Shown in pieces: positions 11,167 through 16,081 of a stretch of DNA of 64,000 nt; the first letter of the stretch is position 1, and every line of letters starts with the position of its first letter. Below the pieces are notes generated by a model. It did no database searches. It worked only from the letters and a program-made list of their open reading frames with translations, and was not told where the DNA came from. The stretch lies in assembly GCA_965216875.1 (NCBI GenBank), contig OZ244207.1, positions 2,432,001 through 2,496,000 of the forward strand, written 5' to 3'. The stretch comes from Rubripirellula sp. GTDB lineage: Bacteria; Planctomycetota; Planctomycetia; Pirellulales; Pirellulaceae. Position numbers and translations under genes: made by a program.

Positions 11167-11330
11167 TTTGTAGTTCCTAGCTCTAGCCGGAATCTTCCGC
11201 CGGCTTTCGCCTAAGGGCGCGACGACAAACGGGCTGAAAGACAACGATCATCTATTGACCGTCCGTTTGTAGTACCGAGCTTTAGCCGGAATCTTCAACC
11301 ACTTCCGCCTGAAGGCGGGACGACAAACGG
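11167..11330. repeat. Two tandem family-B REP pairs (TTTGTAG..AGCCGGAATC....GACGACAAAC)
   Basis: Units start at GTAG 11170 and GTAG 11269 and match 7445/7491. Outer inverted repeat CCGTTTGT..ACAAACGG. Confidence 0.8.
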
Positions 11331-11351: not shown

Positions 11352-12185
11352 CTAGCGTTGACGCTGCTCAACCGCCCGGCCAAGCTCGCGAATCTGCTTT
11401 CGCATCGCCTCCATCTCCTTCATCATGTTTCGCATCATTGCGTGAACATCCTCGTCGCGATGTCTTGGCTCACGGTCACGGCGCTGCAACTGATGTTCGA
11501 GATCTTCCGTCCGTTCAGCAACCGCTCGAGCGAGCTCGGGTGCTCCGGCAGCCCGCAGGTGCTCCATTGCCGCGTGCAGATGCTCGATCTGTTGGTGAAT
11601 CCGAGCCTCACGATGCTCGGGGCCATGATGTTCGTGATCATGATCTCCGTGCGCATGATGTTCGTGATCGTGTCCTTCATGTCCGCCATGTTCATGATGA
11701 GCGTGATCGTCGTGACGGTGCTCGGCATGCCTTTTTTCGCGTTCGCGATACATCGCGGCAAGCTTCTCTCGAGTAACGGCGATCTTCTGTTGCACCGCCT
11801 CCAGGTCACGCCGCATCTTCGCTTCGACCTCGCGACTGAGTTCACCGCTTGCCAAGTCGCGTTGCAGCTTTTCCTTGGCCTCCATCAGCTTGGGCATGTA
11901 GGCAGCCGCTTCGCGTTGAAAACTTTCGGCTTCCGCATACGCCTGCTTGGCCCGTTTCTCAGCTTCGGCGCGAAGTTTCTTGGCCTGCTTTTGACCTTCC
12001 ACTAGAAGCCGCTCTTTCATTTCAGCAGCCTTCTTTTCGGCTGCCTCGGCGGCGGCGATCGCCTTCTCTTTGACCGCTGACTCGTAAGCCTCAAGTTCTT
12101 CGTACCGCTTGGTTTTGGCATCCTGAGCGACCGCGGAAAGCGACGCGAATGCAACGACCAACAATGCAACCGAATGACGCAACAT
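11352..12185 (-). CDS. Secreted coiled-coil protein with His-rich tract
   Basis: MLRHSVALLVVAFASLSAVA signal peptide, long E/K/A heptads and HAEHRHDDHAHHEHGGHEGHDHEHHAHGDHDHEHH. The upstream ORF extension crosses repeats and is likely spurious. Confidence 0.8.
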   Translation of the reverse strand: MLRHSVALLVVAFASLSAVAQDAKTKRYEELEAYESAVKEKAIAAAEAAEKKAAEMKERLLVEGQKQAKKLRAEAEKRAKQAYAEAESFQREAAAYMPKLMEAKEKLQRDLASGELSREVEAKMRRDLEAVQQKIAVTREKLAAMYREREKRHAEHRHDDHAHHEHGGHEGHDHEHHAHGDHDHEHHGPEHREARIHQQIEHLHAAMEHLRAAGAPELARAVAERTEDLEHQLQRRDREPRHRDEDVHAMMRNMMKEMEAMRKQIRELGRAVEQRQR

Positions 12186-12265
12186 TTTGAATATTCCTAA
12201 TTGGCAAGAATCGTCCGGGCCCGGTTCGTAACGAATCATTGTACCGCAGCCCCCGCCCGACAGCG

Positions 12266-12546
12266 CCAAGTAGCCAAGTAGCCAAGTAGCCAAGTAGCCA
12301 AGTAGGGTGTGTGCTTGCACGCACCATAAAAACCAAGATGAGCGGCACGCCGGATCTTCGCCAAAACGGGTGAGGGCCGCGGAGCGGCGAGGAGTGTGTT
12401 CCCACGGGGACCGTGGGAACAAGGTTATTTTCGATACCCGGCTCAGCACTCGATCGGAATCGTTCCACCGATGACGAGTACGAGTACCGCGGAGCTGAAC
12501 ACGAGAAGACCAAAGTGGGTTTTGTGCGTGCAAGCACACACCCTAC
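12266..12546. repeat. (CCAAGTAG)x5 microsatellite plus inverted pair of family-A REPs (12302-12325, 12523-12546) enclosing a family-F-like hairpin
   Basis: GTAGGGTGTGTGCTTGCACGCACC and its reverse complement. Internal TGTTCCCACGGGGACCGTGGGAACA and ACGAGTACGAGTACCG. Confidence 0.88.
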
Positions 12547-12559
12547 AAAGACTTAACGT

Positions 12560-15500
12560 TCACTTGAGCCAATTCGGGTTTGCGAGCGCATACTGCTCAA
12601 GTTGCCGGATCTGGTTCTCGAGCATTCCGGCTCGCTGAAAGCAATGTGACGGGAACTTTCGTCCAGGATTGAACACGCGGCGCGGTTGACGCTGGCCACC
12701 GTGCTTGGTGTGAAGATAGGCGAGCTCCGAAACCAACAGCGATGCAATGTCGTAGACATCGCTTGGAGTCGCTTCGGCAATCGCTTCATCGGCAACTTCC
12801 AATTCCAACATCTTGATCCCGGACACGTCGGCAATCTTTCGCACGCGAGCAAAACAGGCAATCAAGCGTCGGTAGACATCTGCGGGAGTCTTCGCCCGCT
12901 CAAAGGCCGGTTCGGCTGGCAACGCGACGGCGCCGGGAACATCGGCAAGCAAATTGGAACAATAACTGACAGCAAGGGTGGTCTGTTGAAAAACGTCGGA
13001 AGGCGTGAATTGGCGTTCCACCAACAGATTCGCCTGCCGATTCGCGACGGTGATTGCGACAAAAACATCGTTTGGCTTTTTGGCCCGATCGACCGGCGGT
13101 AATGCAACCTTTGTCTCGATTCCCAGCGTCGACTTAATCGTCTCGAGCCGCGACTGAATCACCTTCACCAATTCAAGCACATTCGCAGGCTGGATTGACC
13201 CTTGAGGCCGCGTCGGTCTGGCTGCGCGCGTGCGAGTGATTTCGAACCCAAGTTCATCAACCTTCTCAAAAAGGGTCAACGCCTGAAAATAGACTTCGTG
13301 CGGCTCTGCATTCTTGACCGGAACATTGACGACTTCACTTCGGGGCTTGCCCATCTCGCGCCGAATCAAATCAAGATCGCCAAGTACGACTTGCGCGTTT
13401 GCAAAGACATCGCCTGGCACAACGTTGTTGTCGGCTCGCGATTCGTCGGCTTGGGCCGATAGAGAGCAACACAGCACCAATGCCGAAGCCAAAAGCGACT
13501 TCTTCACGCTCGCTCGCCGCATCAATGACAACACACCTGCGAGCGCGACGCCGATCGCGATGTTCGCTCCGACCGTCATTGCCAAAAGACTCACACGATT
13601 GATCTGCATCGAGTTTTCTTCCGTTGCTTTTTGGATTTCGTCCACCACATCACTTAGCAGTTTTTCGGTCTTCTGTGAGGTAGGTAAAGCCTGGGTCTGC
13701 AATCGCCAAAGCGCAACGTTTGCCTGCGGGGAAGCGCGGAGCCGCAAGGCTTGTTGGGCAAGTCGACGATAGACTTCAATCTCGCCCTTGATCCACTCGA
13801 GTCGTTTCAACTCGCGCTGCGGTAATTCTGGATCACGCGTCACCAGTTCATCGACGGTCAATTGCAACTGTTTCAATCGATCCGAAAAACCTTCGGCACT
13901 GGTTGAATGCGTGTCGTTCACGGCATCAATTAGCAAGCGATGCGTCTGCGAAAAATCAAGCTGCATGCGTGCGTAAGTCGCCCAAACGGTGTTCGTTTCG
14001 GCCGATGCAACCTTCACACTCTCGATATCGTCGTCGGAGTGAGTTGCCTGTTCGAGATCGATCAAACTGGCAAACGCCGAAACGATTGACGATTCCACGG
14101 GTTCGATATCTCGTTGCAACAAATCGAGCGCGGGCTGATTACCCGGTGTTTGCGCGACCTCTTCGATCCACCATTGTTCTTCGTAGAGTTGATCAAGCAT
14201 CGAATTGAGTTGTTCCAAGCGTTGGCCGCTTTCAGGATTGTTGGCGTCGGTGGCGATTTTGGTCAGGATCGCGACCTGAGGCCGAATCTCTTCTGCCCAT
14301 GCGTTGGAACGAGCCGCTTTGAATTGTTCGTCACCCAAGGCCACCCACCCTCGCAAAGCTCCCAAGGAACGACGAATCCCACTTTGAAGGGACAGCGACG
14401 CAGCCATCGCCGGCTCATTGACGTTGGCCAATTGCAAAGCACTCGAGCGGAGTTGGCTGGCAACAAACATTCCCATCACCAACAAAACAGCAACCGCAGC
14501 AAGCAGCGAGCGCAATGCAACTTGCTGACGCTTGAGTTTCTGTGCGTCGAGGAATTGCTCTGCCTTGGCGACACGTACCGCACTGAAAAGCTCGCCGTGG
14601 TGAGCGATGTCTTCGTCCAGCAACGATTCGGCCAAGTCATAGTCGCCGCGATGATAGGCGGCTTGGGCATAAGCAAGTTGCGCGTCGGCAAGCTGGGCGT
14701 CAATCCGCGTGTTGGCTGGATTTAGATTCTGGGCTTGTTCGAACCCAAAGATCGCTCGGACAAAGTCCTGGTAGTTGCCGGTAACGGTCGCCGCCTCGAG
14801 CATTTCGGACGCACTCGCTGCGATCGCCTCACTTTCGCGGTGCGAGATCCATTCCCGGATCGCCTCCTGGAATTCCTCGACGGTTTGGTACCGATCTTCG
14901 GGGCTCGTCGCCATTGCTTTGATCGCGACGTCGACCAATCCACCGGTCTGGTCAGTCGGCACGATCTCATTTCGTGCTGCGGCTAACAGACACTTCATCA
15001 CCGTCTTGCCGCGATGAGGTGGGAAGCCGGCAACGATCTGATAGAGCGTCGCCCCAAGCAAATAGATGTCGCTCAGCGGTCCGATTCGATCTTTCCCGTA
15101 CGCCATCTCGGGAGCCATATAGGCCGGCGTCCCGCCCATCTGTTGCTTGGTTGTCAGCGCCGTCTTCCCATACTCGGGTGTCGGCTGGGCGAGTCCCCAG
15201 TCCATCAACCAAACTTCGCCGAACCGACCAAGCATCACATTCTCTGGCTTGATGTCTCGATGCACGATGCCGCGGGAATGGGCAAAGGCAACCGCGTCGG
15301 CGACGCGCATCAAGAGTTCGACGTTCTCTTCATCGGGCTTTTTGCCAATCACGTCTCTCCACGTTTGACCAGCAACCTTCTTCATCGAATAGAAAAGCGT
15401 TCCCTCTTCGTTGTGCCCCAGTTCGTGCACGGGAACGATCCCCGGATGGTCCAAATCCGCTGTGACGACCGCTTCTTGCAGAAACAACCTGCGTCTGGAA

Positions 15501-16081
15501 AGGTTTTCTTCATCACCTTGCTTGAGCATCTTCACCGCAACGACGCGATCGATCGACGATTGCTTCGCACTGTAGACGACCCCCATTCCACCTTTCCCAA
15601 TCACCTGCAAAAGGTGATAGTCCTCGGCGTCGGCATCATCCCCCGCGTCTTCGTCGATCTCGTGCCGCGTCGTCCGCTTGTTGATCGGCAACCGAACCGA
15701 CTGCTGAGCCTCGACGTCGACTTCGCCCTTGATCGTATGCGAGGCGTAGTTATCGCTGCTGGCAGCGCGAGACCACGTCGCGGTCACGTGACGCATTGTC
15801 TCGCCAGCCTTTTTACCGCTAGGCTCAACGGGAGCGCTGTCCAAAACAAAGGTCTCAGCACTTTCGATCTCTGGGCTTTCGATCCCAGCACTGTCGCCTC
15901 GGCTCATCGCGCGCACCCGATCCTCTAGCTCCGATCCGGGATGCTGAATCTCCTCGAGAACCTGCGAGCAGATCTCGCACGTCTCCAAATGCTTCTCAAT
16001 CGAATCAGCCACCGAGTCGGGCAATGAGAACGAGAGCCACTTTTGCAGCGTGTCGCGATCCGGGTGATCAGAATCGGTCAT
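12560..16081 (-). CDS. Membrane Ser/Thr protein kinase (Hanks type) with N-terminal anti-sigma-type Zn finger, periplasmic helical sensor and C-terminal repeat domain
   Basis: HLETCEIC; IGKGGMGVVY, VAVK, HRDIKPEN, DWGLA, GTPAYMAPE, SDIYLLG; three hydrophobic segments; eight P-x-D/E-V-F/Y repeats. Confidence 0.92.
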   Translation of the reverse strand: MTDSDHPDRDTLQKWLSFSLPDSVADSIEKHLETCEICSQVLEEIQHPGSELEDRVRAMSRGDSAGIESPEIESAETFVLDSAPVEPSGKKAGETMRHVTATWSRAASSDNYASHTIKGEVDVEAQQSVRLPINKRTTRHEIDEDAGDDADAEDYHLLQVIGKGGMGVVYSAKQSSIDRVVAVKMLKQGDEENLSRRRLFLQEAVVTADLDHPGIVPVHELGHNEEGTLFYSMKKVAGQTWRDVIGKKPDEENVELLMRVADAVAFAHSRGIVHRDIKPENVMLGRFGEVWLMDWGLAQPTPEYGKTALTTKQQMGGTPAYMAPEMAYGKDRIGPLSDIYLLGATLYQIVAGFPPHRGKTVMKCLLAAARNEIVPTDQTGGLVDVAIKAMATSPEDRYQTVEEFQEAIREWISHRESEAIAASASEMLEAATVTGNYQDFVRAIFGFEQAQNLNPANTRIDAQLADAQLAYAQAAYHRGDYDLAESLLDEDIAHHGELFSAVRVAKAEQFLDAQKLKRQQVALRSLLAAVAVLLVMGMFVASQLRSSALQLANVNEPAMAASLSLQSGIRRSLGALRGWVALGDEQFKAARSNAWAEEIRPQVAILTKIATDANNPESGQRLEQLNSMLDQLYEEQWWIEEVAQTPGNQPALDLLQRDIEPVESSIVSAFASLIDLEQATHSDDDIESVKVASAETNTVWATYARMQLDFSQTHRLLIDAVNDTHSTSAEGFSDRLKQLQLTVDELVTRDPELPQRELKRLEWIKGEIEVYRRLAQQALRLRASPQANVALWRLQTQALPTSQKTEKLLSDVVDEIQKATEENSMQINRVSLLAMTVGANIAIGVALAGVLSLMRRASVKKSLLASALVLCCSLSAQADESRADNNVVPGDVFANAQVVLGDLDLIRREMGKPRSEVVNVPVKNAEPHEVYFQALTLFEKVDELGFEITRTRAARPTRPQGSIQPANVLELVKVIQSRLETIKSTLGIETKVALPPVDRAKKPNDVFVAITVANRQANLLVERQFTPSDVFQQTTLAVSYCSNLLADVPGAVALPAEPAFERAKTPADVYRRLIACFARVRKIADVSGIKMLELEVADEAIAEATPSDVYDIASLLVSELAYLHTKHGGQRQPRRVFNPGRKFPSHCFQRAGMLENQIRQLEQYALANPNWLK

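What the first reader, a model, noticed from the sequence alone, without database searches (positions are those of the whole stretch)
12560..16081. Receptor Ser/Thr kinase that appears to carry its own cleavable periplasmic partner (polyprotein-like)
Seen order: HxxxCxxC Zn finger, Hanks kinase, TPR-like helices, TM1 (about 14455-14520), a helical sensor of about 285 aa (SLGALRGWVALGDEQFKAARSNAW), TM2 (about 13523-13595), then M854-RRASVKKSLLASALVLCCSLSAQA|DES, a textbook Sec signal peptide with AxA site, then a repeat domain of about 295 aa. The reading frame is uninterrupted and a weak AGGTG lies upstream of the internal ATG at 13522. Known: two-TM helical-bundle sensors typify MCPs and histidine kinases, and some need periplasmic co-receptors (e.g. 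TorS/TorT). Inference: a chemoreceptor-type sensor and its normally separate accessory gene were grafted onto a eukaryote-like kinase, and signal peptidase I or internal initiation releases the partner. No ECF sigma gene is adjacent despite the anti-sigma-like finger.
Basis: partly seen in the sequence, partly recalled or inferred. Interest (0 to 1): 0.8.

Follow-up and report, generated by a model that had tools for sequence, protein, structure and literature searches.

The report
Kinase receptor fused to its co-receptor
One gene encodes a membrane protein kinase together with a partner protein that other bacteria encode as a separate neighbouring gene, and a signal-peptide-like stretch kept between them is predicted to let the cell cut the partner free outside the membrane, where it likely docks on the kinase's own sensor.

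Summary
The 1173-aa frame is intact, and the same fusion occurs in 8 other protein clusters. The C-terminal 295 aa belong to an unnamed family that usually stands alone with an N-terminal signal peptide. Its gene lies near a gene with this same sensor in 59 of 80 loci and in 14 of 19 genomes of a family sample. Those receptors are mostly histidine kinases, also cyclases, phosphatases and chemoreceptors. The sensor's predicted fold is closest to McpS and TorS; the partner has no close solved fold. Two relatives keep kinase and partner as overlapping separate genes, so a frameshift fusion is the likely origin. All 9 junctions keep a basic loop, a short hydrophobic core and a signal-peptidase-type site, against 8-14 of 141 control anchors. 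Cleavage and binding are predicted, not shown; the complex could not be folded. An uncut third helix or an internal start remain rivals. The scan's index had no look-alike of this DNA; it noted a similar internal-signal design once, in a polysaccharide exporter.

The parts
12560..16081 (-). Whole fused gene, 1173 aa (P0001)
   Evidence: contigs of runs X4 and X5; 8 fused relatives
15968..15991 (-). HxxxCxxC putative zinc finger, residues 31-38 (anti-sigma-like label is recalled, no family hit)
   Evidence: present in 5 of the 7 fused proteins that have an N-terminus
14885..15619 (-). Hanks-type Ser/Thr kinase domain, catalytic motifs intact
   Evidence: Pkinase E 5.5e-36; motifs
14522..14836 (-). 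TPR-like helices and linker helix to TM1, shared with two paralogous kinases of this genome
   Evidence: TPR_4 E 0.027; tblastn 44% and 35%
14450..14506 (-). TM1, predicted inside-to-outside anchor
   Evidence: Kyte-Doolittle 19-residue mean 2.36
13595..14449 (-). Periplasmic sensor, predicted bimodular helical bundle (McpS HBM/TorS-like)
   Evidence: AF2 pLDDT 93.8; Foldseek E 3.6e-4 McpS, 3.7e-4 TorS; VIA Z 15.7 over 235 residues, rmsd 4.4; 4HB_MCP_1 in 24 of 55 relatives
14138..14176 (-). QWWIEEVAQTPGN motif of the sensor, candidate partner-docking patch (inferred)
   Evidence: double Trp in 39 of 55 rows, in 11 of 13 further partner-adjacent sensors and 0 of 10 sensors from genomes without a partner hit
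13526..13588 (-). TM2, predicted outside-to-inside; no HAMP domain follows
   Evidence: HAMP follows the sensor in most unfused receptors
13448..13522 (-). Internal signal-peptide-like segment M854-A878, predicted SPase I site AQA|D879
12563..13447 (-). Partner domain: unnamed all-helical family, two ~140-aa repeats, normally a standalone secreted protein
   Evidence: 441 relatives of 163-520 aa; AF2 pLDDT 92.5; repeat; no Pfam or NCBIfam hit

Best explanation
This is a conserved in-frame fusion of a two-helix membrane Ser/Thr kinase with the product of its usual neighbouring gene; the retained signal-peptide-like segment is predicted to re-export that partner, signal peptidase I likely cuts it free at AQA|D879, and the partner likely docks on the sensor and gates kinase activity. 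Shown: intact frame, conserved fusion, gene-level coupling of partner and sensor, split forms of the same kinase. Predicted: three-crossing topology, McpS/TorS-like sensor fold, cleavage site. Inferred: cleavage in the cell, binding of partner to sensor at the double-Trp patch, signalling through TM1 and the TPR-like helices (there is no HAMP domain), and origin by a frameshift at an overlapping stop/start. After cutting, the kinase would keep the signal peptide as a short third helix or lose it. The ligand and the kinase substrate are unknown.
For: Fusion in 9 clusters, 44-49% sensor identity in the six found and 52-60% partner identity; 8 form one clade in both trees (SH-aLRT 99 and 100). 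Partner gene directly upstream of a sensor gene in 54 of 80 loci, fused in 2, directly behind an unfused kinase-sensor gene in 2, 3.7 kb from a sensor gene in 1; 14 of 19 in a family sample. Split kinases L019 and L035 end shortly after TM2 and overlap the partner start by 17 and 4 nt. Junction hydrophobicity 1.15-1.8 in all 9, like standalone signal peptides (median 1.68, n=106) and below TM1 anchors (median 2.44, 10th percentile 2.07, n=141); cleavage-matrix score median 10.4 versus 11.6 and 5.4. Site motif in 9 of 9 junctions, 76 of 106 standalone proteins, 8-14 of 141 TM1 controls, 290 of 1465 random windows. Strain X5 carries a polar change at position -5 of the site (my translation of place 13461). 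The genome encodes Peptidase_S26 matches. Precedent for SPase I cutting a polytopic protein: LtaS (PMC12260438, passages).
Against: No experiment shows cleavage or binding. The cleavage matrix is home-made, not SignalP; it put the cut at the site read by eye in only 5 of 9 junctions, and 2 of 9 did not beat their shuffles (p 0.12 and 0.28). The motif was chosen after seeing the sequences, and the 9 junctions are kin. A Met lies before the hydrophobic core in 6 of 9 junctions (chance about 0.014-0.04 if independent), which fits an internal start. The pairing is not obligatory: 21 of 80 partner loci have no sensor (2 end at the contig edge), and 11 of 13 other sensor-bearing genomes in a phylum sample had no partner hit. 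The partner does not have a solute-binding-protein fold match, so ligand carriage is unsupported.
Confidence: 0.55

Rival explanations
1. The segment is not cut. It serves as a third membrane helix that tethers the partner in the periplasm beside its sensor, giving a three-helix receptor with a built-in accessory domain.
For: Re-export is needed either way, so a basic loop and a hydrophobic core would be kept without cleavage. The matrix score is weak for P0136 and P0122.
Against: The core is shorter and less hydrophobic than real anchors in all 9, and a -3/-1 site is kept in 9 of 9 although the letters around it do not align.
Confidence: 0.2
2. Most partner is made from an internal start (Met854 here), so the two genes still work as two, and the in-frame join is secondary.
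For: Met before the core in 6 of 9 junctions; AGGTG upstream of ATG 13522.
Against: 3 of 9 junctions have no Met there (GTG or TTG cannot be checked without their DNA); Met positions do not align; anti-SD pairing is matched by 12.5% of internal ATGs, and did not separate my rough set of true starts from internal ATGs. It does not explain why no stop follows TM2 in an 8-member clade.
Confidence: 0.12
3. The partner is released but does not gate the sensor: it is a folding aid, scaffold or independently acting secreted protein that merely travels with this sensor.
For: 21 of 80 partner loci lack the sensor and share no common neighbour; no ligand-binding fold match.
Against: The pairing holds across many phyla and six kinds of output domain, and a sensor motif tracks the partner's presence.
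Confidence: 0.1
4. A chance lost stop codon or an assembly or gene-calling error joined two genes.
For: Overlapping split forms exist (L019, L035), and fused P0136 is sister to split L035, so that one join could be recent or an error.
Against: Eight diverged fused proteins form one clade; contigs of two studies cross the junction in frame.
Confidence: 0.03

Closest known systems
TorS-TorT (histidine kinase with bimodular helical sensor plus periplasmic binding protein); also CtpL-PstS
   Same: Sensor fold match to TorS and McpS; a separate periplasmic protein stimulates the receptor (PMC8050422, passages).
   Different: Output is a Ser/Thr kinase N-terminal to TM1, no HAMP; the partner is all-helical with no match to TorT or other solute-binding folds; both are in one frame.
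GlnH-GlnX-PknG of Actinobacteria
   Same: Periplasmic partner, two four-helix bundles and a TPR-bearing Ser/Thr kinase in one pathway (PMC9769921 and PMC11032199, passages).
   Different: Three separate proteins there; GlnX has four helices and side-by-side bundles, GlnH is a lipoprotein. Here one chain; no homology was shown.
LtaS of Staphylococcus aureus
   Same: [quoted passage not shown]
   Different: An enzyme whose own domain is shed; not a receptor delivering a co-receptor derived from a separate gene.
Bradyrhizobium fbcH cytochrome b-c1 precursor (recalled; not confirmed, listings only)
   Same: As recalled, two subunits of one complex in one frame, split at an internal signal sequence.
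   Different: Respiratory complex, not signalling.
Planctomycete membrane Ser/Thr kinases
   Same: Cytoplasmic kinase with periplasmic accessory domains (PMC11032199, passages); the kinase-TPR block is shared with two paralogues here.
   Different: The passages read describe mostly single-span proteins with periplasmic TPR or WD40; none described this architecture. Supplements not seen.

Membership tests
Hanks-type Ser/Thr kinase (PF00069) | Domain match over cut-off and catalytic motifs | tested here: met
   124.8 bits versus 31.7; motifs
Hanks-type Ser/Thr kinase (PF00069) | Kinase activity | not testable with these tools
   needs an assay
Bimodular four-helix-bundle sensors (HBM/TorS type) | Two stacked helical modules between two membrane helices | tested here: met
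   full-length structural matches to McpS and TorS; halves match each other, hhalign 85.8%
Pfam HBM (PF16591) | Profile match over the curated cut-off | tested here: not met
   no hit for this sensor; 1 of 55 relatives at E 0.0013
Solute-binding-protein-stimulated receptors (TorT type) | Partner has an alpha/beta periplasmic-binding-protein fold | tested here: not met
   confident model is nearly all helix, no strand of 3 or more residues; no Pfam SBP hit in 55 rows
Solute-binding-protein-stimulated receptors (TorT type) | Partner gene linked to receptor gene | tested here: met
Solute-binding-protein-stimulated receptors (TorT type) | Partner binds sensor and ligand | not tested
Sec/SPase I substrates | Basic n-region, short h-region, small residues at -3 and -1 | tested here: met
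   (own matrix and motif, not SignalP)
Sec/SPase I substrates | Observed cleavage | not testable with these tools
   needs proteomics or a blot
Zinc-binding anti-sigma kinases paired with an ECF sigma | zf-HC2 match and adjacent ECF sigma gene | tested here: inconclusive
   motif present, no Pfam hit; two neighbours scanned, neither a sigma; others read by eye

The most novel reading that the evidence does not exclude
A bacterial receptor polyprotein: one Ser/Thr kinase gene makes the receptor and, by internal signal-peptidase cleavage, its own co-receptor one to one; and that co-receptor is the first member of an unnamed all-helical class of periplasmic accessory proteins that gates a sensor shared by histidine kinases, cyclases, phosphatases, chemoreceptors and Ser/Thr kinases in many phyla.
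Probability: 0.45. Interest if true: 0.86.

Novelty: new variant of a known kind. Interest (0 to 1): 0.72.

Why it matters
What switches on bacterial Ser/Thr kinases is mostly unknown. Here the gene itself names the likely activating partner, which makes the question testable with two soluble domains. The fusion also exposes an unannotated sensor-partner pair used by at least six kinds of signalling output. If cleavage is confirmed, it adds a signalling example to the few bacterial proteins cut internally by signal peptidase, and shows a simple route to them: a frameshift at an overlapping stop/start that keeps the downstream signal peptide. Annotation pipelines that look for signal peptides only at the N-terminus would miss such cases.

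Tried and rejected
Complex prediction of sensor with partner was not available, so binding has no computed verdict. A second read-laying over the junction gave no answer. No RNA holder was listed. Partner fold: no Foldseek match at E<=0.001, best VIA Z 6.1 over 88 residues, no PDB sequence hit under E 0.2; this does not prove a new fold. ESM Atlas gave only unnamed clusters for the partner and 4HB_MCP_1/CHASE3-type clusters for the sensor. The Shine-Dalgarno test did not discriminate. Tat export was considered because 8 of 9 junctions have RR, but the standalone signal peptides lack a consistent motif (by eye). No recurrent non-signalling neighbour hints at the ligand. The metagenome loci (25 of 42 testable with sensor, 20 of 62 too short) were not counted as independent, because one search pattern came from the sensor. 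The careful sensor tree did not finish; both trees are quick trees without bootstrap. Paper searches showed no description of this fusion or partner family in listings; subscription papers are mostly not covered.

Full report
Observation. The minus-strand frame 12560-16081 gives 1173 aa without a stop. It holds an HxxxCxxC motif, a kinase with intact catalytic motifs, weak TPR-like helices, two strong hydrophobic segments, a 285-aa region between them, the segment M854-A878, and a 295-aa C-terminal domain made of two ~140-aa repeats. A contig of run X4 is identical across the gene; it may be the source sample. A contig from another study (X5) spans 12513-15975 with 85 substitutions and one in-frame 15-nt deletion. 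Of its listed changes, the two nearest the junction read as N840I and L874Q (my translation); 68 rows were not shown.

The fusion is conserved. A search among proteins of 645-2053 aa with the C-terminal domain gave 9 hits: this protein and 8 others at 52-60% identity. All align through sensor, TM2, junction and C-terminal domain; six of the eight have a Pkinase annotation and two are N-terminally partial. In quick trees of 61 sensors and 61 partners, eight fused proteins form one branch (SH-aLRT 99 and 100); the ninth, P0136, is sister to an unfused kinase, L035. So there were two fusions, or one and a re-split. The trait is patchy: among 400 other genomes of the family 19 have the partner and 1 of these is fused; the two other genomes of the genus gave no match.

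The C-terminal domain is normally a separate secreted protein. It has 441 relatives of 163-520 aa, whose N-termini read as signal peptides. No Pfam or NCBIfam family matches. Its model is confident and helical (pLDDT 92.5), with no close solved structure. Of 80 loci from named genomes, 54 have the partner gene directly upstream of a gene with this sensor, 2 are fused, 2 lie directly behind an unfused kinase-sensor gene, 1 is 3.7 kb from a sensor gene, and 21 have no sensor, 2 of them at a contig edge. In the family sample, 14 of 19 have the sensor within 1.5 kb. I scanned 53 of the 57 unfused sensor genes: 31 histidine kinases, 5 GGDEF proteins, 3 adenylate/guanylate cyclases, 2 SpoIIE phosphatases, 2 chemoreceptors, 2 Ser/Thr kinases and 8 with no output domain found (my count). 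The reverse link is looser: of 13 other sensor-bearing genomes in a phylum sample of 400, 2 have the partner, both adjacent. The double Trp of the QWWIEEVAQTPGN motif is present in 11 of 13 further partner-adjacent sensors and in 0 of 10 sensors from 9 genomes without a partner hit, several of them kin. I infer a partner-using subfamily with this patch as a candidate contact.

The sensor. Its model (pLDDT 93.8) matches McpS and TorS best by Foldseek (E 3.6e-4 and 3.7e-4); VIA-align gives Z 15.7 over 235 residues for McpS and 14.5 over 250 for TorS, with single four-helix sensors scoring similarly on half the length. 4HB_MCP_1 hits 24 and CHASE3 13 of 55 relatives. The family is large (779 representatives at E<=0.001). 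A review (PMC8050422, passages) lists TorS-TorT and CtpL-PstS as bimodular sensors driven by a periplasmic partner.

Origin. L019 and L035 encode kinase, TM1, sensor, TM2, a short tail and a stop that overlaps the partner's start by 17 and 4 nt. A frameshift there would give the fused form with the signal peptide in place (inference). The kinase-TPR block is shared with two paralogues in this genome that end in other domains, so the sensor-partner pair was likely grafted onto a modular kinase.

The junction. Its letters do not align and Met854 is not conserved in position, yet its features are kept. The best 19-residue hydrophobicity is 1.15-1.8 in all 9, against a median of 1.68 for 106 standalone signal peptides and 2.44 for 141 TM1 anchors. 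A matrix trained on the standalone proteins scores the junctions at median 10.4, held-out standalone ones at 11.6 and TM1 controls at 5.4; 7 of 9 beat their shuffles at p<=0.04 and 2 did not. Thirteen of the 120 standalone proteins were left out as partial or extended before training, and one more failed the start/length filter. A small-x-[AG]|[QDE] site follows the core in 9 of 9 junctions, 76 of 106 standalone proteins, 8-14 of 141 TM1 controls and 290 of 1465 random windows; the motif was set after seeing the data and the junctions are related. Against a pure cleavage model, 6 of 9 junctions have a Met before the core. The AGGTG is uninformative. The genome has Peptidase_S26 matches.

Mechanism. 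Predicted topology: kinase inside, TM1 out, sensor in the periplasm, TM2 in, basic loop inside, signal segment out, partner in the periplasm. Most likely SPase I cuts at A878|D879 and the partner binds the sensor, as TorT does TorS; with no HAMP domain the signal would pass through TM1 and the TPR-like helices to the kinase. I put this whole chain at 0.55, an uncut tether at 0.2, internal initiation at 0.12, a non-gating partner at 0.1 and an artefact at 0.03.

Known systems. It works like TorS-TorT and like GlnH-GlnX-PknG (PMC9769921, passages; PMC11032199, passages) but is a member of neither: the partner is not a solute-binding fold and all parts are in one frame. Internal SPase I cleavage has precedent in LtaS (PMC12260438, passages) and, from recall only, in fbcH. 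PMC5727409 (passages) added nothing. Searches listed no paper on this fusion or partner family; I read no supplements, and the domain tables of PMC11032199 could bear on that. The scan's index had no look-alike and one analogous note on a polysaccharide exporter, which I did not test.

Verdict. Real, conserved and unusual: a new variant of partner-dependent receptor, with an unannotated partner family and a strong but unproven polyprotein mechanism. Interest 0.72.

Noticed in passing
P0034: A predicted protein labelled Durusdinium trenchii joins partner then sensor in one chain; probably bacterial DNA in a eukaryotic assembly with two genes merged by the gene caller (inference).
   Followed up: no
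P0066: A response-regulator receiver domain is joined in frame to a partner with its signal peptide inside: a second possible internal-signal fusion, seen once.
   Followed up: no
P0129-P0131: Ser/Thr kinases with the same sensor in the opposite order (sensor first, kinase after TM2): a second graft of this sensor onto kinases. Their gene neighbours were not seen.
   Followed up: no
L147:3028-4848: A 607-aa secreted-looking protein with about four units of the partner repeat and no sensor hit in 9 kb.
   Followed up: partly
L085:1-972: A partner frame open to the contig edge with a basic stretch before its Met; could be a cut-off fused form.
   Followed up: partly
window 12297-12550 and about 11300-11330: Short sequence matched by many contigs of the same runs: an interspersed repeat downstream of the gene.
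   Followed up: no
window 11352-12242 (-): His-rich, charged, secreted-looking protein without Pfam hit.
   Followed up: partly
G000:C1:277936-283551 and 2115993-2118149: Two paralogues share the kinase-TPR block but end in WD40-like repeats after one membrane helix, or PAS-like domains without one (labels read by eye).
   Followed up: partly
G000:C1:5888268-5890607: A receiver/ATPase/kinase protein carries the HxxxCxxC segment at its C-terminus instead of the N-terminus.
   Followed up: no
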